The translations under genes were made by a program, and so were the position numbers. From NCBI RefSeq assembly GCF_035084215.1, contig NC_090349.1, forward strand, positions 24,614,001-24,678,000: 64,000 bases of DNA. Direction: 5' to 3'. Numbering within the stretch: the stretch's first letter is position 1; every line of letters begins with the position of its first letter. This stretch comes from Heptranchias perlo (Eukaryota). Below the pieces are notes generated by a model, which worked only from the letters and a program-made list of their open reading frames with translations, had not been told where the DNA came from and made no database searches. This document shows, piece after piece, positions 1 through 57,625 of this stretch.

Positions 1-136
1 GTCTGACCTGGTCAAACTACATATTCTACTTCCACTTCTATGTCTGTAGGGACAACTACTAAGAGGTCTCCCTCTTTCATCTCTAATTGTAAACAATTTT
101 ACAACACCAAGTTATAGTCCAGCAATTTTATTTTAA

Positions 137-177
137 ATTCACAAGCTTTCGGAGATTTTCTCCTTCCTCAGGCAAAT
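137..177 (-). ncRNA. Minimal type I hammerhead ribozyme (inverted copy in Penelope arm)
   Basis: Reverse complement of 3393-3433. Confidence 0.7.
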
Positions 178-427
178 GTTTCAAGATCTCCTTGAAGCCT
201 ACGCATTTATACATATTGAACAATAAAACATGGTGTTTACAGACTGCCCCTGCAACTGCCCGTTGCCAAGGCAATCACCGTGTTCAGACAGAGAGGTGTT
301 ACCTGCAGAACCTCCGAATACACATTCAACAAAAAAACAAACAGGGAAAAAAAACAGAGAAAAGAAAAACACAGAGAGAGGCAGAAACATCCGGAAGGCA
401 GAGAGAGCCAGCAAATGACCCATTATA

Positions 428-1645
428 TTAAAAACAGATAACATTTGTTCGCTGGTGGGGTAACGTGTAGCGTGACATGAACCCAAGATCCCGGTTGAGG
501 CCGTCCTCATGGGTGCGGAACTTGGCTATCAATTTCTGCTCGACAATTTTGCGTTGTCGTGTGTCTCGAAGGCCGCCTTGGAGTACGCTTACCCGAAGGT
601 CGGTGGATGAATGTCCATGACTGCTGAAGTGTTCCCCGACTGGGAGGGAACCCTCCTGTTTGGCGATTGTTGCGCGGTGTCCGTTCATCCGTTGTCGCAG
701 CGTCTGCATGGTCTCGCCAATGTACCATGCTCTGGGGCATCCTTTCCTGCAACGTATGAGGTAGACAACGTTGGCTGAGTCACAGGAGTATGAACCATGC
801 ACCTGGTGGGTGGTGTCATCTCGTGTGATGGTGGTATCTGTGTCGATGATCTGGCATGTCTTGCAGAGGTTACCGTGGCAGGGTTGTGTGGCGTCGTGGA
901 CGCTGTTCTCTTGAAAGCTAGGTAGTTTGCTGCGAACGATGGTCTGTTTGAGGTTGGGTGGCTGTTTAAAGGCGAGTAGTGGAGGTGTGGGGATGGCCAT
1001 AGCGAGGTGTTTGTCCTCATTGATGACATGTTGAAGGCTGCGGAGAACATGGCGTAGTTTCTCCGCTCCGGGGAAGTACTGGACGACAAAGGGTACTCTG
1101 TTGGTTGCGTCCCGTGTTAGTCTCCTGAGGAGGTCTATGCGATTTTTTGCTGTGGCCCGTCGGAACTGTCGATCGATGAGTCGAGCGTCATATCCCGTTC
1201 TTACTAGGGCGTCTTTCAGCGTCTGTAGGTGTCCATCGCGTTCCTCCTCGTCTGAGCAGACCCTGTGTATTCGCAGGGCCTGTCCATAGGGGATGGCCTC
1301 TTTGACGTGGTTAGGGTGGAAGCTGGAAAAGTGGAGCATCGTGAGGTTGTCCGTGGGCTTGCGGTAGAGTGAGGTGCTGAGGTGCCCGTCTTTGATGGAG
1401 ATTCGTGTGTCCAAGAAAGAAACTGATTCTGAGGAGTAGTCCATGGTGAGCTTGATGGTGGGATGGAACTTGTTGATGTTATCGTGTAGTCTCTTTAGTG
1501 ATTCCTTGCCGTGGGTCCATAGAAAGAAAATGTCGTCGATGTATCTGGTGTATAGTGTTGGTTGGAGGTCTTGTGCAGTGAAGAAGTCCTGCTCGAACTT
1601 GTGCATGAAAATGTTGGCGTATTGGGGTGCGAATTTGGTCCCCAT
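428..1645 (-). CDS. Penelope RT (C-terminal part) plus GIY-YIG endonuclease, inverted-arm copy, 5'-truncated
   Basis: GTKFAPQYANIFM, YTRYIDDIF, LYRKPT, CxxC linker, VVYLIRC...YIGET...R...E...GLN; identical to the last 405 aa of 1742-3142. Confidence 0.9.
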   Translation of the reverse strand: MGTKFAPQYANIFMHKFEQDFFTAQDLQPTLYTRYIDDIFFLWTHGKESLKRLHDNINKFHPTIKLTMDYSSESVSFLDTRISIKDGHLSTSLYRKPTDNLTMLHFSSFHPNHVKEAIPYGQALRIHRVCSDEEERDGHLQTLKDALVRTGYDARLIDRQFRRATAKNRIDLLRRLTRDATNRVPFVVQYFPGAEKLRHVLRSLQHVINEDKHLAMAIPTPPLLAFKQPPNLKQTIVRSKLPSFQENSVHDATQPCHGNLCKTCQIIDTDTTITRDDTTHQVHGSYSCDSANVVYLIRCRKGCPRAWYIGETMQTLRQRMNGHRATIAKQEGSLPVGEHFSSHGHSSTDLRVSVLQGGLRDTRQRKIVEQKLIAKFRTHEDGLNRDLGFMSRYTLPHQRTNVICF

Positions 1646-1741
1646 GGCTGTTCCGTGTGTTTGGGTAAAGAACTGGTTATCGAAGGTGAAGACATTGTGA
1701 TCCAGGATGAAGCGGATGAGTTGTAGGATGGCTTCCGGAGA

Positions 1742-3142
1742 TTGGCTGTCTCGGCACTATACACCAGTATCCCCCACGATGACGGCATCGCTGCGACAGC
1801 ATCAATACTCAACACCAACAACAGCCAATCTCCGGAAGCCATCCTACAACTCATCCGCTTCATCCTGGATCACAATGTCTTCACCTTCGATAACCAGTTC
1901 TTTACCCAAACACACGGAACAGCCATGGGGACCAAATTCGCACCCCAATACGCCAACATTTTCATGCACAAGTTCGAGCAGGACTTCTTCACTGCACAAG
2001 ACCTCCAACCAACACTATACACCAGATACATCGACGACATTTTCTTTCTATGGACCCACGGCAAGGAATCACTAAAGAGACTACACGATAACATCAACAA
2101 GTTCCATCCCACCATCAAGCTCACCATGGACTACTCCTCAGAATCAGTTTCTTTCTTGGACACACGAATCTCCATCAAAGACGGGCACCTCAGCACCTCA
2201 CTCTACCGCAAGCCCACGGACAACCTCACGATGCTCCACTTTTCCAGCTTCCACCCTAACCACGTCAAAGAGGCCATCCCCTATGGACAGGCCCTGCGAA
2301 TACACAGGGTCTGCTCAGACGAGGAGGAACGCGATGGACACCTACAGACGCTGAAAGACGCCCTAGTAAGAACGGGATATGACGCTCGACTCATCGATCG
2401 ACAGTTCCGACGGGCCACAGCAAAAAATCGCATAGACCTCCTCAGGAGACTAACACGGGACGCAACCAACAGAGTACCCTTTGTCGTCCAGTACTTCCCC
2501 GGAGCGGAGAAACTACGCCATGTTCTCCGCAGCCTTCAACATGTCATCAATGAGGACAAACACCTCGCTATGGCCATCCCCACACCTCCACTACTCGCCT
2601 TTAAACAGCCACCCAACCTCAAACAGACCATCGTTCGCAGCAAACTACCTAGCTTTCAAGAGAACAGCGTCCACGACGCCACACAACCCTGCCACGGTAA
2701 CCTCTGCAAGACATGCCAGATCATCGACACAGATACCACCATCACACGAGATGACACCACCCACCAGGTGCATGGTTCATACTCCTGTGACTCAGCCAAC
2801 GTTGTCTACCTCATACGTTGCAGGAAAGGATGCCCCAGAGCATGGTACATTGGCGAGACCATGCAGACGCTGCGACAACGGATGAACGGACACCGCGCAA
2901 CAATCGCCAAACAGGAGGGTTCCCTCCCAGTCGGGGAACACTTCAGCAGTCATGGACATTCATCCACCGACCTTCGGGTAAGCGTACTCCAAGGCGGCCT
3001 TCGAGACACACGACAACGCAAAATTGTCGAGCAGAAATTGATAGCCAAGTTCCGCACCCATGAGGACGGCCTCAACCGGGATCTTGGGTTCATGTCACGC
3101 TACACGTTACCCCACCAGCGAACAAATGTTATCTGTTTTTAA
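1742..3142 (+). CDS. Penelope reverse transcriptase plus GIY-YIG endonuclease, 5'-truncated (the first codons are created by the inversion junction)
   Basis: 466-aa uninterrupted frame: VSALYTSIP, GTAMGTKFAPQYANIFM, RYIDD, PCHGNLCKTC, VVYLIRC/WYIGET (GIY-YIG), terminal GLN. Confidence 0.93.
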   Translation: MAVSALYTSIPHDDGIAATASILNTNNSQSPEAILQLIRFILDHNVFTFDNQFFTQTHGTAMGTKFAPQYANIFMHKFEQDFFTAQDLQPTLYTRYIDDIFFLWTHGKESLKRLHDNINKFHPTIKLTMDYSSESVSFLDTRISIKDGHLSTSLYRKPTDNLTMLHFSSFHPNHVKEAIPYGQALRIHRVCSDEEERDGHLQTLKDALVRTGYDARLIDRQFRRATAKNRIDLLRRLTRDATNRVPFVVQYFPGAEKLRHVLRSLQHVINEDKHLAMAIPTPPLLAFKQPPNLKQTIVRSKLPSFQENSVHDATQPCHGNLCKTCQIIDTDTTITRDDTTHQVHGSYSCDSANVVYLIRCRKGCPRAWYIGETMQTLRQRMNGHRATIAKQEGSLPVGEHFSSHGHSSTDLRVSVLQGGLRDTRQRKIVEQKLIAKFRTHEDGLNRDLGFMSRYTLPHQRTNVICF

Positions 3143-3392
3143 TATAATGGGTCATTTGCTGGCTCTCTCTGCCTTCCGGATGTTTCTGCCTCTCTCTGTG
3201 TTTTTCTTTTCTCTGTTTTTTTTCCCTGTTTGTTTTTTTGTTGAATGTGTATTCGGAGGTTCTGCAGGTAACACCTCTCTGTCTGAACACGGTGATTGCC
3301 TTGGCAACGGGCAGTTGCAGGGGCAGTCTGTAAACACCATGTTTTATTGTTCAATATGTATAAATGCGTAGGCTTCAAGGAGATCTTGAAAC

Positions 3393-3433
3393 ATTTGCCT
3401 GAGGAAGGAGAAAATCTCCGAAAGCTTGTGAAT
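3393..3433 (+). ncRNA. Minimal type I hammerhead ribozyme in Penelope pLTR
   Basis: ATTTGC-CTGAGGA-A-GGAG(AAAAT)CTCC-GAAA-GC-TT-GTGAAT: core CUGANGA...GAAA, 4-bp stem II, palindromic AAGCTT stem III, stem I ATTTGC/GTGAAT with G-U pairs. Confidence 0.72.
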
Positions 3434-4061
3434 TTAAAATAAAATTGCTGGACTATAACTTGGTGTTGTAAAATTGTTTACAATTGTCAACCCCAGTCCA
3501 TCACCGGCATCTCCACATCTTTCATCTCTAGTTCGCGATCGTTTTCTGAGGTGAGATTCACTTCCGGACTCCCTACCACTACTTGTACTCCACTTTCGTA
3601 CTCTCCACTCTTTTACCCCATTCTGCCAGCCCATGAACCTCGCTTCATGGCCATCATCCTGATCATTCAACCAAAATTTAAACCTACCAGTAGCTTTGCC
3701 AGCACTTCACAAAATTGTTGCGTCCCTCCATTCCTTAATCCCTTCTGGAACATATGTCACCTGTGTACCCACTTGGGGTAATTGTTCTGTGGATGTGATA
3801 GCTGTGTCATGTGTTTTTTGATCACTGACATTACCCACTGTGCAGCCCTTGATCTACCTCAGTCTGTACATCGGGAACCTCATCAGAAAAATCATAAACA
3901 TCTGAGGCACAAGGTGCCTCGTTTACTTCCATCAACTGCTCAGAGTCCGAGATTTTATAATTAATTCCAATTAATCGTGAGGAATGAACTTTAACAGTTT
4001 GATTGTCATGTTGAACAATTACTGTCTTAGCATCACAACCTATTACCTTACTAGGGTCTTT

Positions 4062-6159
4062 CTATTCCCTATGGCCCTCTCTTTTGTAGTATACCAAATC
4101 TCCTGAATTGAACTCTGTCTCAGATGGTCTAATACGATGCCTCAGTGCTCGACAAATTTCCTCTGATACCTCTGACTTGATAAAAGCCTGTCTCCCTGCA
4201 TGCATAGCATTTAAATGCTCAGAAAAAATGGCACTAATTGTAGTACCTTCTAGAGCAGGAGGATTATCACAAAGAACACAAGGTAATTTGGGATTGCGCC
4301 CATAGACTAGTTGGTAAGCATTATATCCTTCAACCATCTGAAGAGAATTCTTTGCATGAACTGACCATGCGAGGGCAGTTGACAATTTACACATTGTGCG
4401 ATCAGTCAAAATTTTATGCATAATGTTATCAATCACAGCATGATTCCTTTCACAAAGACCATTGCTAAAAGGGCTGTCAGCTGCTGTATTCAAAACTTTG
4501 CTGGTGTCCCAAGTCCAGTCCCTATCCATTTTTCCATAATTTTATCTAGAATAACCTTTTTCTCCTTATTATACATTAGTGTAGAAATATTAAATTTTGT
4601 CACCAGGTCAATAAAATGTAAGATGAAAACATTTTTGTCTTTGTCCCATACCTTTAGATCCATGGCAACTACTCTTATCCTTATCGCCTGATGCCATTAA
4701 TACTTGCCCAACACGATGATGGGAAACTTCAGATTTTATTAAGGGGCTGCAATAATGTCCTGACTGGGTAAACTGCAAATCAACTGGTTTCCCAAAAATG
4801 ATAGCCTCATCGTGTTCCATGTCAAGTTTCATTTTTGCCTTTTTCATGGAAGGTTTACCCAAAAGCATTGGTATCGCACTGGAGACTACATCCATACTTA
4901 TAAAATGGCTTACTCCAGCTATCTTACATGGAATTACCACTCTCTTGAGTGACTTCAAGGTGTTGTCGTCTCCAAACGTAAAACATGTAGAACTTTTATA
5001 TTCCTTAACCTTGCATTGATCCTCACTCCTTAGTGAATCAAGATAACATTTTTAACCAATCTACCCCACATACAGTTGAAGTACATGTACTATCTAACAC
5101 CGCACAATTAAAGGAATCCACGACTAATACATTCATCACAGGATTAGAACTTCTTGTGACCAGTATAATCTGTTCAGATTCATCATTATCTTCAAACTCT
5201 TCCTCATTTTCTTTATCCTCTTCCTCAGAACTACTTTCTTCATGCATCATTTCAAAGACACTGTGTCTCGATCTGGGCAATTCGCCTCATAATGGTACTT
5301 AGAGTCACATCTAAAGCATCTATTAATTTTTTCTCGGGCATTCCTGGGATTCTTTTGCCCATTATTACTGTACCAATTTTGTGTTCTGTTGATATAACTT
5401 CATTTGCTCTATCAGCTTTCATCACCAATCTGGCTGTCTTTAAACCTTCCATCAGATCGACGGAAAATTTTGAAACCTGGTCTGGCGTCTGCGTTTAGTA
5501 TCTGGAACATTTCAAAACCTGGTAACCATCAAATCTTCCATTCTTTGTGTCACAGCGGAAGATCCCATTTGTTCCATGGAGGCTAACAGGAATGAATGCT
5601 GCCCCAGGAATTTTTTTAAGGCAGCAGACATTTGATCCAACGGAGTCTCCTTTTCTGAGAACTGGACGCCAGTTAGAACCAGTTGCCTGTCCATATAAGA
5701 CACCTTAGCACAATCTAGTAATTTAAATGCTAGTATCGATCCAGGAATTCCCAAATGGATCTTTGTCAACCTTTTCTACAATTTGTTAAAGTCCATGATA
5801 TACACTTCCATTAAATGACCGTCTGTTTTCCGAAATCTATCAAATACTGACCAGGCTTCAGAGGCACTTAACAGGTCATCTTTCTTGTAGATTTGATCCA
5901 GAAATTCTATTAGAAAGGTAAAACCTTCATCATTTTCCAAAAGATCTGCATCCAGCTCAGAAAATACTTTACTTCTGATTTTACTTTGTTCAAGAAGCGA
6001 CAACGCCAAGGCCATGCCTTGTTTTCTCTTTGGCGGGGTAGTAACCCTTGCCCACATATCAACCTCATTCTTCCACTGGTCACATGGTTCAAACTCTGAG
6101 AACGTCGGAGGGAAATCGTACCTCAACGGTTTAAACATGCTTTCTGCCATTTTCCACAA
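4062..6159 (-). pseudogene. Copia gag-protease-integrase remnants (frameshifted)
   Basis: ORF fragments 5776-6159 and 5512-5769 (gag), 5038-5280 and 4608-4958 (protease region), 4062-4529 (integrase). Confidence 0.85.
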
Positions 6160-8052: not shown

Positions 8053-8571
8053 GTGAGTACACTTATTCATTCCCCTACACTCCATCTGCCACATCACCGC
8101 CCCCACCCCACATCTCCTTCAGCACTGCCAACACTACTCTGTCACATCACCCCTCATACCCACTCAAACCTCATCCTCATCTTACCTGCACTTACTCACC
8201 TCGCCAGTACTCATCCCGCCACTACCACTCAACCCAATCCTCATACAATCTCATGGCTCTATCTCATACTCACCCTCTCGTGCATCTCTTTCACGGTCAG
8301 CCTCACCGAACCTGTGCTGCAGCCACAGAGCACGCATCACATATGTGCAGTAGGCAGCGTAAGGCAAACGTGTCGTGAGCATGAAGGGGATGCACAAGGG
8401 TGTTTGAGGGTTTGTCATGGTTGTTACTTATATTGAATTTCTGACCAACTCACATTACATATTATATTGGCACCACTACTGCCATGTATTTGCGAATCTT
8501 GTCTGGTTTGTGCAATAATGCCCTTTCCTGAGGATCACTATGAAGACCCACAACGGATGCCACCCATTGTG

Positions 8572-9056
8572 TCACTGCAGAGTGGGTGTAGGTGTATTTG
8601 CAGGGCTCTTTTGTGCAGACGGCTGAGAGACGTCGGCGATGTCCCCGGTGGCACCCTGGAAGGATGCGGAGGAGAAGTTGTTGAGGGAGTGGTGACTTTG
8701 ACAGCGACAGGTAAGAAGATGATGCTCGGGCCAGCCAGGAGCAGCTTGGCATGAAGGAGGCTGCAGATGTCCACGACTACATGTCGAGTGACTCTGAGCC
8801 TCCGTGTGCACTGCTGCTCAGAGAGGTCCAGGAAGCTGAGCCTCGGTCTGTGGACCCTGTGGCGAGGGTAGTGCCCTCTGCGATGCATCTCTCGCTGTGG
8901 TATCCTTCCCTCCTGCTGTACAGGTGGATGTGTCACAGCACTCTGTTGTGGAGCTCCACGTGTCAGAGGTGGACGGCGTGGATGGCGAGGCTGGTGAGGC
9001 TGGTAATGCTGTTCGCCCTCCAAGGAGGTCATGACTGCAGCTACGGCGGCCCCCAT
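8572..9056 (-). pseudogene. PIF/Harbinger (HARBI1-like) transposase, N-terminal remnant
   Basis: YPRHRVHRPRLSFLDLSEQQCTRRLR...LPVAVKVTT, frameshift, then LNNFSSASFQGATGDIADVSQ; convergent with the Myb gene. Confidence 0.8.
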
Positions 9057-9894
9057 CCGGAAGATGTACATCTGAGGGGGTCTGCAAGGTAGGTACATGT
9101 CTCTGGACCCCGGGGTAAGTGTGCAAGTTGGTGACTTTGATTATCAGGAGGAGGGTGGTGGAGGCCAAACTTTGTCCCAGGTGACAGAGTGGCCTCCTGC
9201 AATGAGTGAGGGTCTCCCCCCACACCTGTCAAATGGACCTTTGCAGCTGCCACAGGCATCGCACTGCAAGGTGCATGGCCAAGTGCCCCCTCCACCCCCT
9301 GGAGATTGTCCTGTATTTCCACGTACTTACTGCCCTGCAAAACACCAGCACTATGAATGTGGCAGTGGTGAGTCCGTTTGGTACCTCTCAGGTCGAAGAG
9401 ATCATGCAGCTGAAAGGTCACACAGGCGTGCGATTCTTCAACACTGTTTTGGCTGGGAGTCATTTCCGCTACTTTGAAGCTGCAGTATCTGAGCATTTAA
9501 TGGTACTTTGTGAAGCTTGCTGAGAGTTTAAAGGGACCCCTGCATAGTGAAATAGTGGATTTCTCCCTGGGGATTCCATTCTTCCTGTACTTTGACGAGG
9601 ACAATTGTTGAGACATGGATGAGGACAAAGGAAACACTGTGAAGACTGATAGGGTTGAATAACCACACAATTAAAGGGAAGTCGACACTGATATAAATTA
9701 TAGAAAGTTCCTCGGAACAAACAAGTTGAGACATATCCTTGCCTAGTAATTGACTTCCTATTGTGTAGATGCAAATGGTGTCACTCGAGGCCACATCTAA
9801 TCTCGTTAACTCTTGAATTACTTTGGGAGCTTTTGACCTTGTTACTTGATAAACAACCAACAAAGACAGTCAATCTAGGGAAAGATAACAAGTA

Positions 9895-12819
9895 AAACAA
9901 CAAAAATGGTAAAAAGACAAAATTAAAGGTTCTTTATCTGAATGCACGCAGCATTTGTAATAAGATGAATTGACGGCACAAATAGAAACAAATGGGTATG
10001 ATCTCGTTGCCATTACAGAGACATGGTTGCAAGGTGACCAAGGTTGGGAACTGAACATTCAGGGGTATCTGACTTTTCTGAAGGATAGAAAGAAAGGAAA
10101 AGGTGGTGGTGTAGCTCTGTTAATAAAGGATGAAATTGGTACAAAAGTGAGAAATGATCTTGACTCAGAAGATCAAGATGTAGAATCAATTTGGGTGGAG
10201 GTAAGAAATAGCAAGGGTAGGAAATCATTGGTGGGAGTAGTCTATAGGCCCCCTAAGAGTAGCTACACTGTAGGGTAAAATGTAAATCAAGAAATAATGG
10301 GGGCTTTTAAAAAAGGTAATGCAATAATCATGGGCGATTTTAACTTTCATATGGATTGGACAAATCAAATTGGCAAAAGTAGCCCTGAGGATGAGTTCAT
10401 AGAGTGTATTCGGGACTGTTTCTTAGAACAATACGTTGTGGAACCAACCAGGGAACAGGCCATTTTAGTTCTGGTAATGGGTAATGAGACAGAATTAATT
10501 CATGACCTCAAGGTAAAGGAGCCCTTAGGAAACAGTGATCATAATATGATAGAATTTCACATCCAGTTTGAGAATGAGGATCTTGGATCTGAAACTACTG
10601 TATAAACCTAAATAAGGGCAATTACAATGGCATGAGGACAGAGTTGGCTAAAGTGGACTGGGAAAACAGATTAGAAGGATTGGCAGACATTTAAAAAGAT
10701 ATTTTATGACTCTCAACAAAAATATATCCCAGTAAGGAGGAAAGACTCCATGGGAAGGTATACCAACCATGCTAACTAAGGAAATTAAGGATGGTATCAA
10801 GCTAAAAGAAAAGGCATACAACGTGGCAAAGATTAGTGGTAAGCCCGAAGATTGGGAAAACTTTAGAAACCAGCAAAGGAGGACTAAAAAAATAACGAAG
10901 AGGTAGAAAATAGATTATGAGAGTAAACTAGCAAGAAATATAAAAACTGACAGTAAGAGCTGTTACAAGTATATGAAAAGGAAGACAGTAGCTAAAGAAA
11001 GTATAGGTCCCTTAGAGGATGAGACTGGGAAATAATAATGGAAAGCAAGGAAATGGCAGAGGCATTGAACAGATATTTTGTATCAGTCTTCACAGTAGAA
11101 GATGCTAAAAGCATACCAATAATAGTAGATAATCAAGGGGCAAAGGGAAGGGAGGATCTAAAAACAATAACTATCACTAGAGAAAAAGTACTAGGCAAAA
11201 TAATGGGTCTGCAGGCCAACAAGTCCCCTGGATCCGATGGCTTGCACCCAAGGGTTTTAAAAGAAGTGGCTACAGAGATAGTAGATTAATTGGTTGTAAT
11301 CTTCCAAAATTCACCAGAGTCTGGAAAGGTCCCGGCAGATTGGAAAACCTCAAATGTAACGCCCCTTTTCAAGAAAGGAGGGAGACAGAAAGCAGGTAAC
11401 TATAGACCAGTTAGCTTAACATCTGTCATTGGGAAAATGCTAGAATCAATTATTAAGGAAGTAGTAGCAGGACATTTAGAGACTCAAAATAAAATCAAGG
11501 AGAGTCAACATGGTTTTATGAAAGGGAAATCGTGTTTGATAAATTTATTATAGAGTCCTTTGAGGAAGTAACGAGCAGGGTGGATAAAGGGGAATCAGTA
11601 GATGTAGTGTATTTGGATTTCCGAAAGGCATTCGATAAGGTGCCACATAAAAGGTTACTGCACAAGGTAAGAGCTCATGGTGTTGGGAGTAATATATTAG
11701 CGTGGATAGAGGATTGGCTAACTAACAGAAAACACACAGTCGGGATAAAGGGGTCATTTTCAGGATGGCAATCTGTAACTAGTGGGGTGCCGCAGGGATC
11801 AGTGCTGGGGCCTCAACTATTTACAATATATATCAATGACTTGGATGAAGCAAGCGAGTGTAATGTGGCCAATTTTGCTGATGATACAAAGATAGTTGGT
11901 AAAGTATAAGTTGTGAGGAGGACACAAAATGTCTGCAAAGGGATATAGATAGGTTAAGCAAATAGGCAAAAAATTGACAGATGGAGTATAATGTGGGAAA
12001 ATGTGAAGTCATCCATTTTGGCAGGAAGAATAAAAAAGCAAAATATTATATAAATGGAGAAAGACTACAGAATGCTGCGGTACAGAGGGATTTGGGTGTC
12101 CTGGTACATGAAACACAAAAGGTTAGCATACAGGTGCAGCAGGTAATTGGGAAGACAAATGGAATATTGGCCTCTATTTCAAGAGGGATGGAATACAAAA
12201 GCAGGGAAGCATTGCTACAAATATACAGGATGCTGGTGAGACCACACCTAGAGTACTGCGTATAGTTTTGGTCCCCTTATTAAAGGAAGGATATACTTGC
12301 ATTGGAGACGGTTCAGAGAAGGTTCACTAGGTTGACTCCTGGTATGGAAGGGTTTTCTTATGAGGAAAGATGGAGCAGGTTAAGCCTATACTCACTGGAG
12401 TTTAGAAGAATGAGAAGAGATCTTATTGAAACATATAAGATTCTGCGGGGGCTTGACAAAGTAAATGCGGAGAGGATGTCTCCCCTCATAGGGGAATCTA
12501 GAACTAGGGGGCATATTCTCAGAATAAGGGGTTGCCCATTTAAGATGGAGATGAGGAGAAATTTCTTCTCTCAGAGGGCTGTGAACCTTTGGAATTCTTT
12601 GCCCCAAAGAACAGTGGAGGCTGAGTCATTGAATATATTCAAGGCTGAGTTAGACAAATTTTTGATTGGCAAGGGAGTAAAAGGATATGGGGAACAGGCA
12701 AGAAAGTGGAGTTGAGGCCAGAATCAGATCAGCCATGATCTCATTAAATGGCGGAGCAGGCTCAAAGGTTCAAATGGTCCATTCCTGCTCCTATCTCTTA
12801 TGTTCGTATGTTCTTATGT
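9895..12819 (+). mobile_element. CR1-clade LINE, near-complete degenerate ORF2 (APE endonuclease plus RT) with 3' microsatellite tail
   Basis: [54 protein letters not shown]; tail (TGTTCTTA)n; TSD AAGTA at 9890-9894/12820-12824; empty site at ~52160. Confidence 0.93.
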
Positions 12820-13231
12820 AAGTACAGGGAAGTCACACTTCACTCTAGACAGGACACAGTAATCTGTGTGAGATCAAACTTTGACGGGAGAAATGTCACA
12901 TGGTTTGAGTGAACAAAGACACAGCAATCTTTGTGGGGAAATGGCCGTTTCAAAGCCAGTTGTCTTTAAGTGGTGTTTGAATGGCAGACCGAGACGATCA
13001 GTGTGTATTAAATAGGTTTCAGTAGGTGTGTCCAGAGTATGAGGAAAAGGTGGCACAAAGGGACCATGCTTTGGCTGTTAGTTGTGTACAATACTGAAGC
13101 TGCTGTCTCTACCGTACTGTATCCAGACGCAGGCTGGAATTAAAGAATGTATATCTACATTTGATTGTACCCTGTTTGTTCAAACTGCTTTTAATAAAGG
13201 ATAGACTTTCCTTTAATTGGAAGAAGCCGAG

Positions 13232-13830
13232 GCATAAGAGCAGGGAGTTTATGCTAGAACTGCATAAAACATAGGTTAGGCCACAGATTGAGTACTGCGT
13301 ACCGTTCTGGTCACCACATTACAGCAAAAATGTGCATGCACTAGAGGGTACAGAGGAGATTTACAAGGATGCTGCCAGGGCTGGAGAATTTAAGCTATGA
13401 GAAAAGATCGGATAGGCTGGGGGTGTTTTCTTTGGAACAAAGGAGGCTGAGGGGAAATTTAATTGAGGTATATAAAATTATGATGCGAATAGATAGAGTG
13501 GAAAGGAAGGACTTATTTCCCTTAGCAGAGGGGTCAGTGACCAGGGGGCATAGATTTAAAGTAATTGTTAGAAGGATTAGACGGAAGCTGAGGAGAAATT
13601 TTTTCACCCAGAGAGTGGTGTGGGTCTGGAACTCACTGCCTGAAAGGGCGGTAGAGGCAGAAACCCACAACACATTTAAAAAGTACTTGGATGTGCACTT
13701 GAAGTGCCGTAACCCACGGAGCTACGGACCAAGTGCTGAAAAGTGGGATTAAGCTGGATAGCTCTTTCTTGGCCAGCACGGACACAATCTGCTGAATGGC
13801 CTCCTTCTGTGCCGTAACTTTCTATGATTC
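13232..13830 (+). mobile_element. CR1 LINE 3' fragment
   Basis: LEQRRLRGNLIEVYKIM...FFTQRVVWVWNSLP; TTCTATGATTC tail. Confidence 0.85.
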
Positions 13831-13899
13831 CAAGCCTACTGTATTCTGCTTACGACAAGTATTCGTTAACATAGAAGACTACCACCTTCGTTAACAACA

Positions 13900-17801: not shown

Positions 17802-17871
17802 TGTAGGCAATATTACAGTAAACTCAGTCACAGGCACAGAAATGAGTTAATTAACTGAATGATGCACAACG

Positions 17872-38623: not shown

Positions 38624-38694
38624 TAAGCCTACCATATTCTGCTTACAACAAGTATTTGTTAACATGGAAGACTACCACCTTCATTAACAACAAT

Positions 38695-42588: not shown

Positions 42589-43865
42589 TGTAGGCAATAT
42601 TACAGTAAACTCAGTCACAGGCACAGGAATGAGTTAATTAACTGAATGATGCACAACGTTATATAGAATTCTTCCACTTTACATCATAGATCATGGGTGG
42701 GGCTATAATAAAGACAGACTATTTATCGAGTTATATCGTAAACCTGCCAGCAATTCTACTAGAATACCTTCAATATGCATTTACAGATAAATCATTCAAA
42801 CTATACACCAAACCTATGCAAATATATCAGCCTTTGAATTTGGCTGGAGATTTTATGATAACATAAAACTGTATGGTCCTACTCATTTTGCCTTCCTGGA
42901 TTCACCCAAAGAGGAAATGCTGCAATGTTCCTTTTATCTGACTTGTTGGACATTTTGCAATCCATGCTCACTGTCAAGTTTTCATTACCGAAATCAAAAA
43001 ACTATTCAGCAGAGATGGTTATCTACCTCTATATAACCTGCTGATGAGAATTAATTTTATTTTGTAGAAGCTAATTTTAGTGGATTTGTGTCTGTTCCTT
43101 AATTTGCAACAGTTCTGAAGCCTTGCAAAAAAAAGTGTTGGTAACTTCCTGCCACACATTCACAGGAGGTAAGTGGCTCTTCTGTCCTCTTTCCACCACA
43201 ACATCCTTTGCTAATTTTGCTTTTCCTTCAGAAATCATAGAATGGTAACAAGATGGCTTCATGTGGTTTAACGCTTCTGAAACATGGGTTGGTAATGTTG
43301 CTCAACTGGACAGTGCGTTCGGCAATTGGGCAGTGTGATTTTTACACACTCGCAGTATAACACTGTGAATTTTTCCAAAATCAGTAGTGTGTTGTCGGTA
43401 GTGACAGCACTGTGATGAACTGACTTTGCTGCACTTGTATTAATGCATCCAGTACTCTCCTGATGGTAGTGAATCGTGATAGGGTACGGATTCATTCTTC
43501 AAATTTGAATCCCACATTAAGTGCTGGCAGGGTATTATATGGTGTTGGATGGCAGGGTACCAGCAGACAAACCCAAATCTGTCCTCACCCAGTTGCCACA
43601 CAAACAGGCCAAGAAATTCAATCACGTCTAAAAACGGGCACACAGTGGTGTGCACTGCACGCGCCTTTTCAAGTTATACCAGGCTGCACGTTAAATTGAT
43701 GCAGGTGTGCGGGTAGTGCGACCCATGCTATTCATTCACTGCATGTCTCTTTGGCAGGTCCGGATATCGGATGTCTCTGACACCACTTCAAGGCAGCCAG
43801 CAACTCTTAAAGGGGAGGTGCACTCTGGCAGCAGACAGCAGGAAGCGCCTGCTGTAAGGAGAGAA

Positions 43866-45033: not shown

Positions 45034-47832
45034 TCCTGTGTTATAAATCGGATAGCCAGGTGTTGAAGGATAGAATACTAGAGCTGAGTCTTCCATTGCT
45101 TCCACGCCTTTATTCACAAAGCTCCACATTACACCCACAGCAAACACTAGATCAGCTCGCTTATAAATGGATACGAGAGTTCCCAATTCATATGCAGTAC
45201 CTGAATACAGTTAACTCCAGTTGATATAAATCACATGAATACAATTAACAGATTCTCTTCTCCCTCTTTAAATAAAAAAAATAAACTTTATATACACAAT
45301 ACAAACAAAAATTTGAAAATTCAAAAACTTCCATTCTCTGTATAACTTATACTATTCAAAGCATTACATTGTGAGGCGACCCTTCTCCAGGACCCGTAAT
45401 AATTTCTTCATACATCTACTTCTTTTAGTAAAACAATCCAACAGTTGATAGCTTGAATCCACCCATTTAATTTGAGAGATTTCCTTTCTCTCCAGCATTT
45501 GTTTCAAGCCAGCAAGATCAATCCGTAATCTTTTTCACTCACATTTTTTGTAGAGTGTACATTAACCCACAATGAATGATTTCTACATAACATTCAATGG
45601 GTATAGTATCTTCAGTACTCCCATTGTACAGGATGTCACTCAAGATATTTGCCAAATAGAATCCTATATCCAGTGCGTCGACAAGAGCCAGTGTTTCAGC
45701 AGCCAGAGTACTTTTAACAACCCTTTTTATTTTCCTGGCTTCCCAAGCTGGAGGACAACATTTCCCATTCTTCCCCATAAGAAACACTCTGATACCAGCT
45801 GCACTAGAATACCCATCAGGAAGATTAGCATGTGAAGCATCACTAAAAATAACGAACTTCATTTTCTTTGCCTCACCTAAGGATGGAAACTTAAGTACCC
45901 ATTTGTCTATATTTAATTTTTTGTAATGTTTTATTAGCCCGTAAAGCATTCTCGGCTATGGGGTGTTTTGTTGAAGCACTTAACTCCAATACATCAAAAC
46001 TGGCATCTGGTCTAGTCTGAGTGCACAAACAGTTCAACTGACCAATCAAGCTTCGTAATAGCTCCGTCTCTTCTTTCGATATAACATCACCATTCTGAGA
46101 TGACCTAGTACGATTCACCGGGACGGGAGTAGCACTCTCATGAACATGTTGCCAATAGAGCCAAAAAGATTTTTAAGATTACTTTTCCAGCAGTGTGAGA
46201 ATCCACTTGGACATCTGTATCACCCAGTTTCTCTTCAAAACCCCTCGCTACCAACCTCACTTTAGCTGAAAAGTCCCATCTGCAAGGACTTTTGCAGTAC
46301 AAACCCACCAATGCGACAAAGCTGGTTGACCCTTATGTTACCTCAGAATAAACTCCAAATTTGTTCCAACTGTCTCACTCCCTTCATTTTGCCTCTCATA
46401 CTCGTTCATCCTCAAGTTTATTGGCAGCACCCAAAACTTCACGATCATGAAGACTTCTTCTTCTAGTTCTGTTACGTGACTGTTCTGTAGTCTTTGTTTC
46501 ATTGTCTGACCTGGTCAAGCTACATATTCTACTTCCATTTCTATGTCTGTAGGGACAACTACTAAGAGATCTCCCTCTTTCATTTCTTGTTCGCAATTGT
46601 TTTCTCAGGTGAGATTCACTTCCGGACTCCCTATCACTACTTGTACTCCACTTTCGTACTCTCCACTCTTTTACCCCATTCTGCCAGCCCATGAACCTCG
46701 ATTCATGGCCATCATCCTGATCATTCAACCAAAATTTAAACCTACCAGTAGCTTTGCTGGCACATCCCAAAATTGTTGCGTCCCTCCATTCATTAGTCCC
46801 TCTGGAACATATGTCACCTGTGTACCCACTTTGGGTAATTGTTCTGTGGATGTGATAGCTGTGTCATGTGTTTCTTGATCACTGACATTACCACTGTCCA
46901 GCCCTTGATCGACCTCAGTCTGTACATCAGAACCTCATCAGTAAAATCATAAACATCTGAGGCAAAAGGTGCCTCATTTACTTCCATCAACTGCTCAGAG
47001 TCCGAGATTTTATAATTAATTCCAATTCATCGTGAGGAATGAACCTTAACAAGTTTGATTGCCTTGTTGGACAATTACTGTCTTACTATCACAACCTATT
47101 ACCTCATCAGGGTCTTTCCATTCCCTATGGCCCTCTCTTTTATAGTATATCAAATCTCCTGAATTGAACTCTGTTTCAGATGGTCTAATAAGATGCCTCA
47201 GTGCTCTACAAATTTCCTCTGATACCTCTGCCTTGATAAAAGCCTGTCTCTCAGCATGCAGAACATTTAAATGCTCAAAAAAAATGGCACTAATTGTCGT
47301 ATCTTCTAGAGCAGGAGGATTATCACAAAGAACACAAGGTAATTTGGGAGTGCGCCCACAGACTAGTTGGTAAGCATTATATCTTTCAACCATCTGAAGA
47401 GAATTCTTTGCATGAACTGACCATGCGAGGGCAGTTGACAATTTACACATTGTGCGATCAGCCAAAATTTTATGCACCATGCTATCAACCACAGCATGAT
47501 TACTTTCACAAAGACCAATGCTTAAAGAGCTGTCAGCTGCTGTATTCATGACAATTATATTCATATTTTCACACATAACTCTGAACTCCGCTTCAGCGAA
47601 TTCACCTCCATTATTGGTCAAAAACTTTGCTGGTGTCCCAAGCCCAGTCCTTATCCATTTTTCCATAATTTTATCGAGAATAACCTTCTTCTCTTTACTA
47701 TATATTAGTGTAGAAATACTAAATCTTGTCGCCAGGTCAATAAAATGTAAGATGAAATCATTTCTGTCTTTGCCCCATACCTTTAGATTCATGGCAACTA
47801 CTCTGAACCTTATTGCCTGATGCTATTAATAC

Positions 47833-51600: not shown

Positions 51601-51634
51601 GACACTTAGGCCTAGATTTACCTTTAAAAAACTG

Positions 51635-51807
51635 TAAACAATTTTACAACACCAAGTTGTAGTCCAGCAATTTTATTTTAAATTCACAAGCTTTCGGAGG
51701 AAGCCTCCGAAAGCTTGTGAATTTAAAATAAAATTGCTGGACTATAACTTGGTGTTGTAAAATTGTTTACAATTATCAACCCCAGTCCATCACCGGCATC
51801 TCCACAT
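51635..51807 (+). mobile_element. Miniature Penelope insertion: 68-bp hairpin plus tail
   Basis: Arms 51633-51700/51704-51771 (1 mismatch), loop AAG, tail ending CAACCCCAGTCCATCACCGGCATCTCCACAT, 13-bp TSD CTTTAAAAAACTG at 51622-51634/51808-51820. Confidence 0.92.
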
Positions 51808-52566
51808 CTTTAAAAAACTGCCCATTTTCTGGCATGTTTAAAGGCAGTCTGGCAAGTAAAATGGAATGCAGGAGCTCTCTGACACAACTCCACCTCTTAA
51901 AAGAGCCACCATGATTTCCCTCCCATGACACCTCTGTGATGCTGATCCGCCCACTGCAAGTGCATCGCGCCGCAGGATGCATGGCCAAGTGCCCCCGCCC
52001 CCACCCCAGCCCCAGAGATTGTCCTGTGTTTGTGTAGATGCAAATGGTGTCACTCAAGATCACATCTCACCTCGTTAACTGTTGAATTACTTTGGGCGCC
52101 TATGACCCTGTTACTTGATAAACAACCAACAAAGACAGTCAATCTAGGGAAAGATAACAAGTACAGGGAAGTCACACTTCACACTAGACAGAACACAGAA
52201 ATCTGTGTGAAATCAAGCTTTGATGGGAGAAATGTCACACATGGTTTGAGTGAATAAAGACACAGCAATCTTTGTGGGGAAATGGCCGTTTCAAAGCCAG
52301 TTGCCTTTAAGTGGTGTTTGAATGGCAGATAGAGACGATCAGTATGTATTAAATAGGTTTCAGTGTCCAGAGTATGAGGAAAAGGTGGCATAAAGGGACC
52401 ATGCTTTGCCTGTTAGTTGTGTACAATACTGAAGCTGCTGTCTCTACTGTACTCATTCCAGCCTACCTCTGGATACAAAGAACGTATATCTATGTTTGAT
52501 TGTACCCTATTTGTTCAAACTGCTTTTAATAAAGGATAGAGTTTCTTTTAATTGGAAGAAGTTGAG

Positions 52567-53334
52567 GCATAGAATATAAGAGCAGGGAGGTTATGCTAGA
52601 ACTGTATAAAACATTGGTTAGACCACAGCTTGAGTACTGCGTACAGTTCTGGTCACTACATTACAGGAAAGATGTAGTTGCACTAGGGAGGGTACAGAGG
52701 AGATTAACAAGGATGTTGCCAGGGCTGGAGAATTTTAGCTATGAGAAAAGATTGGGTAGGCTGGGGTTGTTTTCTTTGGAACAAAGGAGGCTGAGGGGAA
52801 ATTTAATTAAGGTATATAAAATTATGACGGGACTAGATGGAGAGGATAGGGAGGACTTCAAAAGGGAACTGGATAAGTACTTGAAAGGAAAAAAAATTGC
52901 AGAGTTACAGGGATAAGGCAGGGAAGTAGCACTACCTGGATTGCTCTTGCAAAGAGCTGGCGTGGACTCAATGGGCTGAATGGCCTCCTTCCGTGCTGTA
53001 ACCTTTCCATCATTTGAGGACCTATTTCCCTTTGCAGAGGGGTCAGTGACCGAGGGCATAGACTTAAAGTAATTGGTAGAAGGATTAGACGGGAGCTGAG
53101 GAAAAATTCTTTCACTCAGAGGGTCTAGAACTCACTGCCTGAAAGGGGGTAGAGGCAGAGACCCTCAACTCATTTAAAAAGTACTTGGATGTGCACTTGA
53201 AGCTTCGTATCCGACAGGACTACGGACCAAGAGCTGGAAAGTGAGATTAAGCTGGACAGCTCTTTTTCGGCCGGCAAGGACACAACGGGCTGAATGGCCT
53301 CCTTCTGCGCCATAACTTTCTATGATTCTGATTC
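52567..53334 (+). mobile_element. CR1 3' fragment with a nested CR1 3' end, segment D
   Basis: MLELYKTLVRPQLEYCVQFWS...LEQRRLRG; paralogue of 13232-13830 plus the nested insert at ~52855-53020. Confidence 0.85.
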
Positions 53335-53497
53335 CAAGCCTACTGTATTCTGCTTACGACAAGCATTTGTTAACATAGAAGACGATCACCTTCGTTAACA
53401 ACAATAACGAGGATGTGGAGATGCCGGTGATGGACTGGGGTTGACAATTGTAAACAATTTTACAACACCAAGTTATAGTCCAACAATTTTATTTGAA

Positions 53498-53538
53498 ATT
53501 CACAAGCTTTCGGAGGCTTCCTCCTTCCTCAGGTGAAT
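53498..53538 (-). ncRNA. Minimal type I hammerhead ribozyme in Penelope pLTR
   Basis: Reverse complement reads ATTCAC-CTGAGGA-A-GGAGG(AAG)CCTCC-GAAA-GC-TT-GTGAAT. Confidence 0.75.
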
Positions 53539-53803
53539 GTTGTGGAAATGAAATCCTCGAACCCTTCGCATTTATAAATCACAGAACAATACCTGGTGAT
53601 TACAGATAGTCTTTCCAACTGCCCGTTGCCAAGGCAATCACAGTGTGCAGACAGAGAGGTGTTACCGACAAGGCCACCGAATATACAAACACCCAAAAAA
53701 CAAAGAGAGAGAGAGGCAGAAACATAGAAACATCCGGAAGGAAGAGAAACACAGCAAATGACCCGTTATATTAAAAACAGATAACATTTGTTCGCTGGTG
53801 GGG

Positions 53804-55640
53804 TTACGTGTAGCGTGACATGAACCCAAGATCCCGGTTGAGGCCGTCCTCATGGGTGCGGAACTTGGCTATCAATTTCTGCTCGACGATTTTGCGTTGT
53901 CGTGTGTCTCGAAGGCCGCCTTGGAGTATGCTTACCCAAAGGTCGGTGGCTGAATGTCCTTGACTGCTGAAGTGTTCCCCGACTGGGAGGGAACCCTCCT
54001 GTCTGGCGATTGTTGCGCGGTGTCCGTTCATCCGTTGTCACAGCGTCTGCATGGTCTCGCCAATGTACCATACTCTGGGGCATCCTTTCCTGCAATGTAT
54101 GAGGTAGACAACGTTGGCCGAGTCACAGGAGTATGAACCATGCACCTGGTGGGTGGTGTCCTCTCGTGTGATGGTGGTATCTGTGTCGATGATCTGGCAT
54201 GTCTTGCCGAGGTTACTGTGGCAGGGTTGTGTGGTGTCGTGGACGCTGTTCTCCTGAAAGCTGGGTAATTTGCTGCGAACGATGGTCTGTTTGAGGTTGG
54301 GTGGCTGTTTAAAGGCGAGTAGTAGAGGTGTGGGGATGGCCATAGCGAGGTGTTCGTCGTCATTGATGACATGTTGAAGGCTGCGGAGAACATGGCGTAG
54401 TTTCTCCGCTCCGGGGAAGTACTGGACGACGAAGGGTACTCTGTTGGTTGCGTCCCGTGTTAGTCTTCTGAGGAGGTCTATGCGATTTTTCGCTGTGGCC
54501 CGTCGGAACTGTCAATCGATGAATCGAGCGTCATATCCCGTTCTTACTAGGGCGTCTTTCAGCGTCTGTAGGTGTCCATCGCGTTCCTCCTCGTCTGAGC
54601 AGACCCTGTGTATTCGCGGGGCCTGTCCATAGGGGATGGCCTCTTTGACGTGGTTAGGGTGGAAGCTGGAAAAGTGGAGCATCGTGAGGTTGTCCGTGGG
54701 CTTGCGGTAGAGTGAGGTGCTGAGGTGCCTGTCTTTGATGGAGATTCGTGTGTCCAAGAAAGAAACTGATTCTGAGGAGTAGTCCATGGTGAGCTTGATG
54801 GTGGGATGGAACTTGTTGATGTTATCGTGTAGTCTCTTTAGTGATTCCTCGCCGTGGGTCCATAGAAAGAAAATGTCATCGATGCATCTGGTGTATAGTG
54901 TTGGTTGAAGGTCCTGTGCAGTGAAGAAGTCCTGCTCGAACTTGTGCATGAAAATGTTGGCGTATTGGGGTGCGAATTTGGTCCCCATGGCTGTTCCGTG
55001 TGTTTGGGTAAAGAACTGGTTATCGAAGGTGAAGACATTGTGATCCAGGATGAAGCGGATGAGTTGTAGGATGGCGTCTGGAGATTGGCTGTTGTTGGTG
55101 TTGAGTATTGATGCTGTCGCAGCGATGCCGTCATCGTGGGGGATACTGGTGTAGAGTGCCGAGACGTCCATCGTGGTGAGAAGTGTTCCTGGTTCAACTG
55201 GTCTGTGGGTACTGAGTTTTTGTCGGAAGTCTGTAGTGTCGCGACAGAAGCTGGGGGTTCACTGTACGATGGGTTTCAGGATGCCCTCGATGTATCCAAA
55301 GAGGTTCTCACACAGGGTTCCGTTGCCTGATACGATAGGACGTCCGGGTGTGTTGGCTTTGTGTATCTTTGGGAGGCAGTAGAAGTACGTGGGATGAGAG
55401 CGCGTAGGATGCTTTGAAGGTCTGGATCGAAGGTCTTGATCAGTTTGTTGAGCTGGTGGGTGTGTTCTTTGGTCGGATCTACAGGTAACCGTCTGTAGTG
55501 ATCCTGGTTGTCCAGTTGTCGGTATGCTTCTTTGCAATTGTCCGTTCTGTTTTGTATGACGATGGCTCCTCCTTTGTCCGCTGGTTTGATGACGATGTTG
55601 CGGTTGGTCTTGAGAGCGTTGATGGCGTTGTGCTCGGGTG
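53804..55640 (-). pseudogene. Penelope RT-GIY-YIG ORF, disrupted
   Basis: Fragments 55276-55740, 55259-55537, 54512-55171, 54038-54343 and 53804-54031; YIDD mutated to CIDD. Confidence 0.88.
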
Positions 55641-56398
55641 ACATTCTGGACTGTCTTCTGAGTGCGGCTGAGTGCCAGCTTTCAGGAGAACAGCGTCCAT
55701 GACACCACACAACCCTGCCACGGTAACCTCTGCAAGACATGCCAGATCATCAACACAGATACCACCATCACACGAGAGGACACCACCCACCAGGTGCATG
55801 GTTCATACTCCTGTGATTCGGCCAACGTTGTCTACCTCATACGTTGCAGGAAAGGATGCCCCAGAGCATGGTACATTGGCGAGACCATGCAGACGCTGCG
55901 ACAACGGATGAACGGACACCGCGCAACCATCGCCAGACAGGAGGGTTCCCTCCCAGTCGGGGAACACTTCAGCAGTCAAGGACATTCAGCCACCGACCTT
56001 CGGGTGAGCATACTCCAAGGCGGCTTCGAGACACACGACAACGCAAAATCGTCGAGCAGAAATTGATAGCCAAGTTCCGCACCCATGAGGACGGCCTCAA
56101 CTGGGATCTTGGGTTCATGTCACGCTACACATAACCCCACCAGCGACAAATGTTAACTGTTTTTAATATAACGGGTCATTTGCTGTGTTTCTCTTCCTTC
56201 CGGATGTTTCTATGTTTCTGCCTCTCTCTCTCTTTGTTTTTTGGGTGTTTGTATATTCAGTGGCCTTGTAGGTAACACCTCTCTGTCTGCACACTGTGAT
56301 TGCCTTGGCAACGGGCAGTTGGAAAGACTATCTGTAATCACCAGGTATTGTTCTGTGATTTATAAATGCGAAGGGTTCGAGGATTTCATTTCCACAAC

Positions 56399-56439
56399 AT
56401 TCACCTGAGGAAGGAGGAAGCCTCCGAAAGCTTGTGAAT
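56399..56439 (+). ncRNA. Minimal type I hammerhead ribozyme (inverted-arm copy)
   Basis: ATTCAC CTGAGGA A GGAGG AAG CCTCC GAAA GC TT GTGAAT; perfect 6-bp stem I and 5-bp stem II. Confidence 0.75.
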
Positions 56440-56494
56440 TTCAAATAAAATTGTTGGACTATAACTTGGTGTTGTAAAATTGTTTACAACAATA

Positions 56495-57625
56495 ATGAGG
56501 ACATGGAGGAGGAAATGATGGAAGCCAGGAGAGTGCAGCAGCATATTTGCAGGCAACACCTTACCCACATGTATCCACTCCACGGGTCTAGAGACCAGAG
56601 AAGACCTATCTGGATTTTTGTTATGGGAAGTATCTGAGAAGCTGCTGAGACTGTGACCATGATATGTGTTGGAACTTGATATGTTCCTATGTGGAAGGAG
56701 GCTGCATAAGAACAGGAGTGGGCCATTCAGCCCATCGAACCTGTTTCACCATTCAATTAGATCATGGCTGATCTGCACCTCTGTGGCTGTAATGGTAACA
56801 GCAGTCAACTTTTGTGCATCCGGATGCTTCTACACAGCCTCTGGTGACATTAATCATATCAGTCAGTCAGATCTTCATCGCTGCATTGCACAGGTCATGG
56901 GTTCTTCAGATATGTCTCTAAGTTCATTCAGACCAACATGGACCCAGCAATGCAGAGAGAAAGAGAGCCATTAGCTTCTTCCAAGTGGCTGGAATTCCAC
57001 AAAATGCAGGGTGTTATTGATACCACTCAGTGGCAATGAAGGTCCTGTCTGGAAACCCCACCAACCTCATCAACAGGAAGGGATCTCATTCTCTCAAAGT
57101 GCAAATAGTGAGTGATGCTAGCCATCTCATTATGCATGTCAATGAGTGCAACCTAGGGTGTAGCCCTGATTAGTTTACTCTCAGTCAATCCAGGATACCT
57201 GGACTGCTCATCTTCAGCTATGTGACAGGATCGCTCATGGGGTATCTGACCCAGCCTTGGCTCATGCCACATTTTTGGCATCTGAGGACAAACCTTGGGC
57301 ACTACCAGGATCATTGTAAACAAGACCCATCGTATTCTCAAGTCCAATTTCCAGCTCATGGGGATTCATGCAGTGACATCTAGCAAGGGGTTGTAGAACT
57401 GTAGTGACTTGCTGCATCCTCCATAATGTGGCCATTACAAGGGGATTGCACCTTCCAGGCATAGAAGGTGAAAAGGAAGAAATTAAATTAAATGTAGCCT
57501 TCTCAAAAATTGTGGAGAGCTCAGGGTGAAGTACACCTGCCTGGATCTTCAGGTGTGGGTATCAGCAGGTCGGGGCCAGTAACTGCCTAAGGTGCCTAAT
57601 CAACCTGGCCTCTCTCCACATATAG
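56495..57625 (+). pseudogene. HARBI1-like transposase remnant, segment D
   Basis: Paralogue of 13900-15050. Confidence 0.7.

What the first reader, a model, noticed from the sequence alone, without database searches (positions are those of the whole stretch)
73..56501. Three independent Penelope insertions share one stereotyped fold-back integration geometry
Seen in the insertions at 86-3517, 51635-51807 and 53414-56485. (i) The 3' end is the same (...GGCATCTCCACAT[C]) and overlaps the TSD by 1-2 nt. (ii) The TSD is about 13 bp (13, 13, ~13-16). (iii) The inverted arm always stops 33-36 nt short of the tail end, at the right foot of a small hairpin TTGTAAA-ATTG-TTTACAA. (iv) Loop size varies (71, 3, ~1410 nt), with 2-nt (GT) or 5-bp pairing at two of the junctions. 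Inference: fixed internal RT initiation, cDNA snap-back, then a defined stop or nick site before joining to the second target end.
Basis: partly seen in the sequence, partly recalled or inferred. Interest (0 to 1): 0.75.

Follow-up and report, generated by a model that had tools for sequence, protein, structure and literature searches.

The report
Ordinary inverted Penelope-like retroelement insertions
Three real, separate insertions of a Penelope-like jumping gene in a shark-type genome each consist of two head-to-head copies with a roughly 35-base extra tail on one side, which is the layout already described for this class of elements.

Summary
Three independent insertions of a Neptune-type Penelope-like element (PLE) each show target duplication, inverted arm, loop, direct arm, ~35-nt tail, target duplication; two have three empty paralogous sites in the window. 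'Inverted pseudo-LTR + 30-40-bp tail + TSD' with self-priming at junction palindromes is published (PMC3846280, PMC8557442), and two internal RT start sites bracketing the tail were shown in vitro (PMC11167929). The scan has reported the same pattern several times in other shark-type DNA. Contigs of public runs support the fixed tail end at 3519 but give only thin support for a sharp arm end. Small additions: the shortest insert turns at hammerhead stem II, and all three targets begin with the tail's last C. Best model: two priming sites fix the outer ends, cDNA snap-back makes the turn.

The parts
73..85 (+). I1 left target-site duplication (maximal 13 bp)
   Evidence: single copy in empty paralogs at 21799, 33298, 46576
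86..1749 (-). I1 inverted arm (no tail), 100% complementary to 1821-3485
1750..1820 (+). I1 loop, 71 nt, belongs to the tail-bearing arm; GT shared at the turn (1748-1749)
1748..3142 (+). I1 5'-truncated ORF: RT core, thumb, CX4CxxC linker, GIY-YIG endonuclease with CCHH residues
   Evidence: RVT_1 2e-07; GIY-YIG 3.2e-4, just under cut-off; 93% to shark homologue P0001
3359..3365 (+). TATA-like box in the pseudo-LTR, kept in the I3 subfamily
   Evidence: function not tested
3393..3433 (+). Type I hammerhead ribozyme motif (helix I 6 bp, CUGAGGA core, helix II, GAAA, palindromic mini helix III; predicted cut after 3427)
   Evidence: no Rfam hit
3446..3509 (+). Long stem-loop; arm ends lie on the 3' side of its apex, the tail is its 3' strand plus 10 unpaired nt
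   Evidence: (3440-3519: -18.9 kcal/mol, z -2.98, 1 of 200 shuffles)
3466..3483 (+).
3486..3519 (+). I1 tail, absent from the inverted arm; last 2 nt shared with the target
3518..3530 (+). I1 right target-site duplication
51622..51634 (+). I2 left target-site duplication (maximal 13 bp)
51635..51807 (+). I2 mini fold-back insert; turn at 51696-51708 is helix II of the hammerhead (5 bp, 3-nt loop), about 25 nt past the predicted cut site
51808..51820 (+). I2 right target-site duplication
53398..53413 (+). I3 tail-side target-site duplication (maximal 16 bp, 1 mismatch)
   Evidence: empty paralogs near 13894, 25423, 38687
53414..55674 (-). I3 tail plus long arm (paired part 53448-54264; loop 54265-55674), decayed ORF
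55675..56485 (+). I3 inverted short arm (no tail)
56486..56501 (+). I3 arm-side target-site duplication; first 4 nt also match the element

Best explanation
These are three dead-on-arrival insertions of an endonuclease-bearing, Neptune-type Penelope-like element in the standard 'inverted copy + tail' form. Mechanism: the GIY-YIG domain nicks both target strands 10-13 bp apart (stagger inferred). The first 3' end pairs by 1-2 nt with the RNA just 3' of a ~65-nt stem-loop and primes cDNA from the tail end (fixed end shown in copies; pairing inferred). The cDNA stops early and its 3' end folds back on itself, at any short match or a natural hairpin, and primes the return strand (inferred). The other target end engages the RNA stem-loop ~35 nt further in, at the second start site known for PLEs, with 1-4 nt of pairing, which sets the outer end of the tail-less arm within a 7-nt window (inferred by analogy with PMC11167929). 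Repair leaves TSD - inverted arm - loop - direct arm - tail - TSD.
For: Anatomy and empty sites. RT + linker Zn motif + GIY-YIG. Tail end fixed: summed contig depth falls from 3.16M (3512-3518) to 0.42M (3519-3525) to 767 (3526-3530) in X1; loose ends behind 3519 in 102 and 116 contigs with 0.38-0.39 agreement (X1, X3: one sample); a 104-nt contig of another organism (X11) matches 3416-3519 without a difference and ends at 3519. Target C matches the tail's last base in 3 of 3, TC in 2 of 3 (chance 0.002, post hoc). Arm-side overlaps 1, 2, 4 nt (sum >=7 in 2.2% of simulated triples). Tail arm longer in 3 of 3; I3 arms share 96 differences from I1 and differ from each other at 18 sites, 7 and 11 per arm, so one template then drift. 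I2 cDNA end folds at the observed turn. Stem-loop z -2.98. Published layout and two start sites.
Against: n = 3. No loose-end row at 3479-3486 is among the 17 shown (256 not shown), so arm ends are either spread or much rarer than tail ends; only two distinct long contigs joined at 3484 and 3486 are listed (25 of 36,438 pieces shown). The I1 cDNA end does not fold at its turn and a 2-nt GT match is common (13 sites in 103 nt). I3's turn has no pairing. PMC11167929 describes initiation at a site not homologous to the cut DNA, and studied a Poseidon element, not a Neptune. What follows the tail in the RNA was not seen (no tandem copy in the window).
Confidence: 0.5

Rival explanations
1. One reading: one TPRT event, snap-back, then the return strand is stopped or nicked by the element's endonuclease at the hairpin/AATT palindromes at 3472-3490 and joined to the second target end by microhomology.
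For: Same anatomy; overlapping palindromes including ACAATTGT at 3480-3487; PMC8557442 attributes the tail to EN-mediated resolution; PMC11167929 reports cutting at ATT and cites a requirement of the tail for EN recognition.
Against: Arm ends of I1 and I2/I3 do not share a base, unlike a defined nick; a second RT start at this position is shown in vitro for PAc; the small hairpin is not the favoured fold (-3.1 alone vs -18.9) and its loop and inner pairs vary in a subfamily seen.
Confidence: 0.22
2. Twin priming without snap-back: a protein dimer primes two cDNAs, one from each nick, at the two start sites (on the same or two RNAs); the truncated cDNA ends are then joined by microhomology or end-joining.
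For: PAc cuts and extends both strands and is modelled as a dimer. Predicts the same 2-nt and 5-nt junction overlaps and allows the filler at I3. If the second RT trails the first on one RNA, the tail arm is also always the longer.
Against: With two independent RNAs, ends 71 nt apart after ~1700 nt and tail arm longer in 3 of 3 are unlikely (inference); at I2 the intramolecular hairpin is the simpler product.
Confidence: 0.2
3. The inverted structure pre-exists in the RNA (self-priming on an antisense or read-through transcript, as proposed in PMC3846280, or re-copying of an already inverted master), so the turns are not made at these sites.
For: PMC3846280 proposes self-priming on an antisense template from palindromes at inverted junctions and reports re-copied inverted units.
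Against: Three different turn points in three subfamily variants; I1 arms are identical over 1665 nt.
Confidence: 0.06
4. Assembly artefact (fold-back reads) or chance agreement.
For: I1 arms are 100% identical, which polishing could help produce.
Against: TSDs with empty paralogs, flanks not inverted, diverged I3 arms, same layout three times.
Confidence: 0.02

Closest known systems
Canonical EN+ PLE insertion unit: inverted pLTR/5'-truncated inverted copy + 30-40-bp tail + short TSD (Adineta vaga Pen2a/Pen2/Pen3a, PMC3846280, passages read; Fig. 2 legend and text of PMC8557442, passages)
   Same: Head-to-head copies, one-sided tail, TSD, palindrome at an inverted junction, self-priming proposed.
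   Different: TSDs 8-10 bp there, 10-16 here; they place self-priming on an antisense RNA rather than on the cDNA; no direct upstream pLTR in these three truncated copies.
PAc, Poseidon element of Anolis carolinensis (PMC11167929; abstract, main text and start of methods read; supplements searched with 0 hits in 7,325 characters of text)
   Same: Fixed internal RT start in an AC-rich stem-loop; tail = interval between two start sites; hammerhead cut ~85-92 nt upstream of the start (92 nt here); cDNA runs through the uncut ribozyme.
   Different: Poseidon clade lacks the linker Zn motif present here; they report no homology between primer and start site, whereas 3 of 3 targets here share 1-2 nt; they do not treat how the inversion forms.
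Neptune (or Nematis) clade of C-terminal EN+ PLEs (diagnostics from PMC8557442)
   Same: RT then CX2-5CxxC linker then GIY-YIG with CCHH.
   Different: No microsatellite targeting at these three sites; clade not placed by a tree.
PLE hammerhead ribozymes (PMC4209133, passages)
   Same: Type I motif in the pLTR with extra base before helix II and palindromic mini helix III; pairs on opposite strands 100-700 bp apart were already noted.
   Different: That a turn can map onto helix II was not in the passages read.
LINE-1 twin-priming inversions and cDNA self-annealing foldbacks (PMC11702581, passages)
   Same: Second target end primes on RNA; cDNA 3' ends can self-anneal; 12-18-bp TSDs.
   Different: L1 inversions copy adjacent, nearly non-overlapping RNA parts and have poly(A); here both arms copy the same RNA segment.

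Membership tests
EN+ Penelope-like elements | RT followed by C-terminal GIY-YIG endonuclease in one ORF | tested here: met
   RVT_1 above cut-off; GIY-YIG E 3.2e-4, 21.4 bits vs cut-off 22.6 in the window, above cut-off in homologue P0046; full-length relatives of ~880 aa
EN+ Penelope-like elements | [quoted passage not shown] | tested here: met
   Read directly in the ORF (VYLIRCRKGC...YIGET, then two His); definition from PMC8557442
EN+ Penelope-like elements | Inverted 5'-truncated copy and one-sided 30-40-bp tail | tested here: met
   3 of 3 insertions
EN+ Penelope-like elements | Short target-site duplication | tested here: met
   I1 and I3 with 3 empty paralogs each; I2 by flank match only
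EN+ Penelope-like elements | Hammerhead motif in the pLTR | tested here: met
   Core and helices found in 4 arm copies, two subfamily variants both pairing; Rfam gave no hammerhead hit; cleavage not tested
EN+ Penelope-like elements | Partial-tandem copy forming a direct pLTR upstream of the ORF | tested here: inconclusive
   All copies in the window are 5'-truncated; no genome held
Neptune/Nematis clade | CX2-5CxxC motif in the RT-EN linker | tested here: met
   CHGNLCKTC; diagnostic
Neptune clade | Placement in an RT phylogeny with named references | not tested
   No named Neptune, Nematis or Poseidon reference proteins were obtained
Penelope/Poseidon clade | Absence of the linker Zn motif | tested here: not met
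   Motif present
PAc-type two-start TPRT | Two RT start sites bracketing the tail, on both nicked strands | not testable with these tools
   Needs in vitro TPRT; genomic ends are compatible

The most novel reading that the evidence does not exclude
Both outer junctions of inverted PLE insertions are telomerase-like primer-template alignments (1-4 nt) on one RNA stem-loop, made from two nicks at a near-fixed stagger of about one helical turn (after removing shared bases the duplicated core is exactly 10 bp in 3 of 3), while the inner turn is a true cDNA snap-back that uses the element's own hairpins such as hammerhead helix II. That would join the published two-start result and the unexplained inversion into one testable cycle, and extend it to the Neptune clade.
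Probability: 0.3. Interest if true: 0.5.

Novelty: already known. Interest (0 to 1): 0.2.

Why it matters
How PLEs make their tandem/inverted insertions is still called undefined (PMC8557442). The layout itself is old news, but these young copies with empty paralogous sites allow base-exact junction accounting, and high-copy shark families would let the snap-back, nick and twin-priming models be separated by a simple tally. On three copies alone nothing is settled.

Tried and rejected
Genome-wide tally: no whole genome is held, so it could not be run. Pattern scans for more copies: metagenome contigs gave 1 match, unrelated DNA with only a 26-nt match; viral contigs 0; genome contigs 0. No RNA holder listed; no RNA run was laid, so nothing on expression. 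One search used 4 of 24 listed runs, all contigs; it shows no per-locus TSDs and X9 gave 1 contig. Rfam at E<=5 on 3000-3600 gave one chance hit, no hammerhead. tblastn with 3 proteins and a loose hammerhead scan found no further PLE family in the window. Idea that the tail ends right before the start codon (loose-end consensus begins ATG): full-length relatives P0144, P0147, P0150 are too distant and shark gene models lack the N-terminus; unresolved. Idea that I2 ends at the ribozyme cut: rejected, its turn is ~25 nt past the cut. [quoted passage not shown] Earlier-finding look-ups by sequence and by place were empty.

Full report
Setting. The window is shark-type DNA: a tandem array of ~11-18-kb units, each with a rhodopsin-family GPCR gene, and the retroelement's closest named homologues are shark proteins (P0001, 93% identity). 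No whole genome is held. Because the array is duplicated, sites filled in one unit can be compared with empty sites in others.

Observation. I1 has arms of 1665 nt without a mismatch and a 71-nt loop; I2 arms of ~71 nt and a 3-nt loop; I3, reversed, arms of 817 nt at 97.8% and a 1410-nt loop. I1 and I3 each have 3 empty paralogous sites that carry the duplicated sequence once; I2 has none. The three belong to different subfamily variants in the pseudo-LTR, so they are independent events. The tail's last 2, 1 and 2 nt also match the target; the arm's last 1, 2 and 4 nt also match the target. Maximal TSDs are 13, 13 and 16 bp (I3 with one mismatch); with all shared bases given to the element each is 10 bp. 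Arm ends in I1 coordinates are 3484-3485, 3480-3482 and 3479-3483: a 7-nt window, and I1's range overlaps neither of the others. At the turns, I1 has GT shared, I2 has a 5-bp stem, and I3 has about three bases that fit neither arm, judged by the conserved FISRT of homologues.

What the element is. The I1 ORF fragment has RT, a CX4CxxC linker and a GIY-YIG domain with CCHH residues (the Pfam score is just under cut-off). By the diagnostics in PMC8557442 (passages) that is Neptune/Nematis type, not Penelope/Poseidon; no tree was made. Downstream lie a TATA-like box (3359), a type I hammerhead motif (3393-3433) that pairs in both subfamily variants (Rfam missed it) and matches the PLE motifs of PMC4209133 (passages), and the terminal region 3440-3519, which folds at -18.9 kcal/mol (z -2.98; 1 of 200 shuffles) into a stem-loop 3446-3509 whose 3' strand is the tail. 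Other letters listed at 3472, 3476, 3477 and a loose end before 3478 point to a subfamily with a different 3471-3477 segment, which breaks both apical folds in part and leaves the flanking pairs; no other letters are listed in 3478-3519. I2's turn is exactly helix II of the hammerhead, ~25 nt beyond the predicted cut, and the cDNA end forms that hairpin in a DNA fold; the I1 cDNA end does not fold at its turn, and GT occurs 13 times in that 103-nt stretch.

Beyond the window. Three pattern scans gave no usable copies. Laying contigs of 4 of 24 listed runs on 3330-3530 laid 14,730 and 21,230 contigs for X1 and X3 (one sample), 1 for X9 and 22 for X11. Depth collapses after 3519, loose ends behind 3519 are the best supported rows (102 and 116 contigs, diverse sequence), and an X11 contig identical over 3416-3519 ends there: the tail end is fixed. 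The arm end is less well supported: two distinct long contigs join other DNA at 3484 (seen in both runs) and 3486, depth dips at 3484-3490, but no loose-end row at 3479-3486 is among the 17 shown (256 not shown). So arm ends are spread over several bases or inverted arms are a minority; the requested tally remains undone.

Mechanism. Shown: layout, fixed tail end, TSDs, one template for both arms (I3 arms share 96 differences from I1 and differ at 18 sites, 7 and 11 per arm), cDNA passing the uncut ribozyme. Inferred: first priming with 1-2 nt pairing (C in 3 of 3, TC in 2 of 3; 0.002 by chance, post hoc; a target preference would look the same); snap-back at the turn (tail arm longer in 3 of 3, two tiny loops, I2 hairpin); arm end set by a second start site with 1-4 nt pairing (sum >=7 in 2.2% of simulated triples, all >=1 in 10%). 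Three genomic copies cannot separate the first three, because they predict the same junction overlaps.

Comparison with what is known. PMC3846280 (passages) calls the inverted pLTR with a 31-bp tail and 8-10-bp TSD the typical Penelope structure and infers self-priming from palindromes at inverted junctions. PMC8557442 (passages) describes the adjacent inverted 5'-truncated copy and one-sided 30-40-bp tail and ascribes the tail to EN-mediated resolution. PMC11167929 (abstract, main text, start of methods) shows both strands cut and extended and two internal RT starts in an AC-rich stem-loop that bracket the tail, 85-92 nt past the ribozyme cut; here the distance is 92 nt. PMC8969392 (passages) lists inverted pLTRs and 3' extensions in a curation guide. 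PMC11702581 (passages) gives the LINE-1 parallels. bioRxiv 10.64898/2026.07.22.740005 (passages) added nothing on junctions. Earlier notes of this scan report the same pattern in other shark-type DNA; they are unchecked AI notes and were not used as support.

Verdict. Real, tidy, already known: interest 0.2. The residue worth keeping is the junction arithmetic (shared C, 10-bp core, turn at helix II), which would deserve about 0.5 if a genome-wide tally bore it out (probability 0.3).

Noticed in passing
window 16740-17846, 28251-29348, 41527-42633, 60023-61129 (minus strand): Four single-exon rhodopsin-family GPCR genes (365-368 aa) in a tandem array of ~11-18-kb units; 7tm_1 hit for the first. 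They look like hydroxycarboxylic-acid/oxoeicosanoid receptor relatives (recalled label, not tested).
   Followed up: partly
loose ends behind window 3519: The consensus of the diverse loose ends begins ATGACT in both runs of one sample; if part of it is the tandem continuation, the tail would end right before a start codon in good context.
   Followed up: partly
window 55668-55674: The three filler bases at the I3 turn repeat a 7-nt word found 10 nt downstream in the element, as if the RT slipped before turning.
   Followed up: no
window 3427-3519: Ribozyme cut to tail end is 92 nt, close to the 85-92 nt in the anole Poseidon element although the clade differs.
   Followed up: partly
loose ends before window 3398 and 3478: About 90 contigs per run diverge upstream of 3398 and 20-30 upstream of 3478: further subfamilies with other hammerhead helix I and stem-loop apex sequences, useful for a covariation test.
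   Followed up: no
window 52700-57700 and paralogs near 12800-14200, 25000-25700, 38300-38900; also 8538-9496: I3 sits inside an older repeat with short inverted repeats whose translations resemble Harbinger-type transposase (recalled resemblance; Pfam gave no hit for 8538-9137).
   Followed up: partly
window 62658-63656: A 37-bp minisatellite of about 25 units.
   Followed up: no
window 4062-4541, 21619-23763, 33118-34511, 46396-47822: Decayed integrase/protease-like retroelement ORFs repeated in each array unit; I1 inserted at the edge of one.
   Followed up: no
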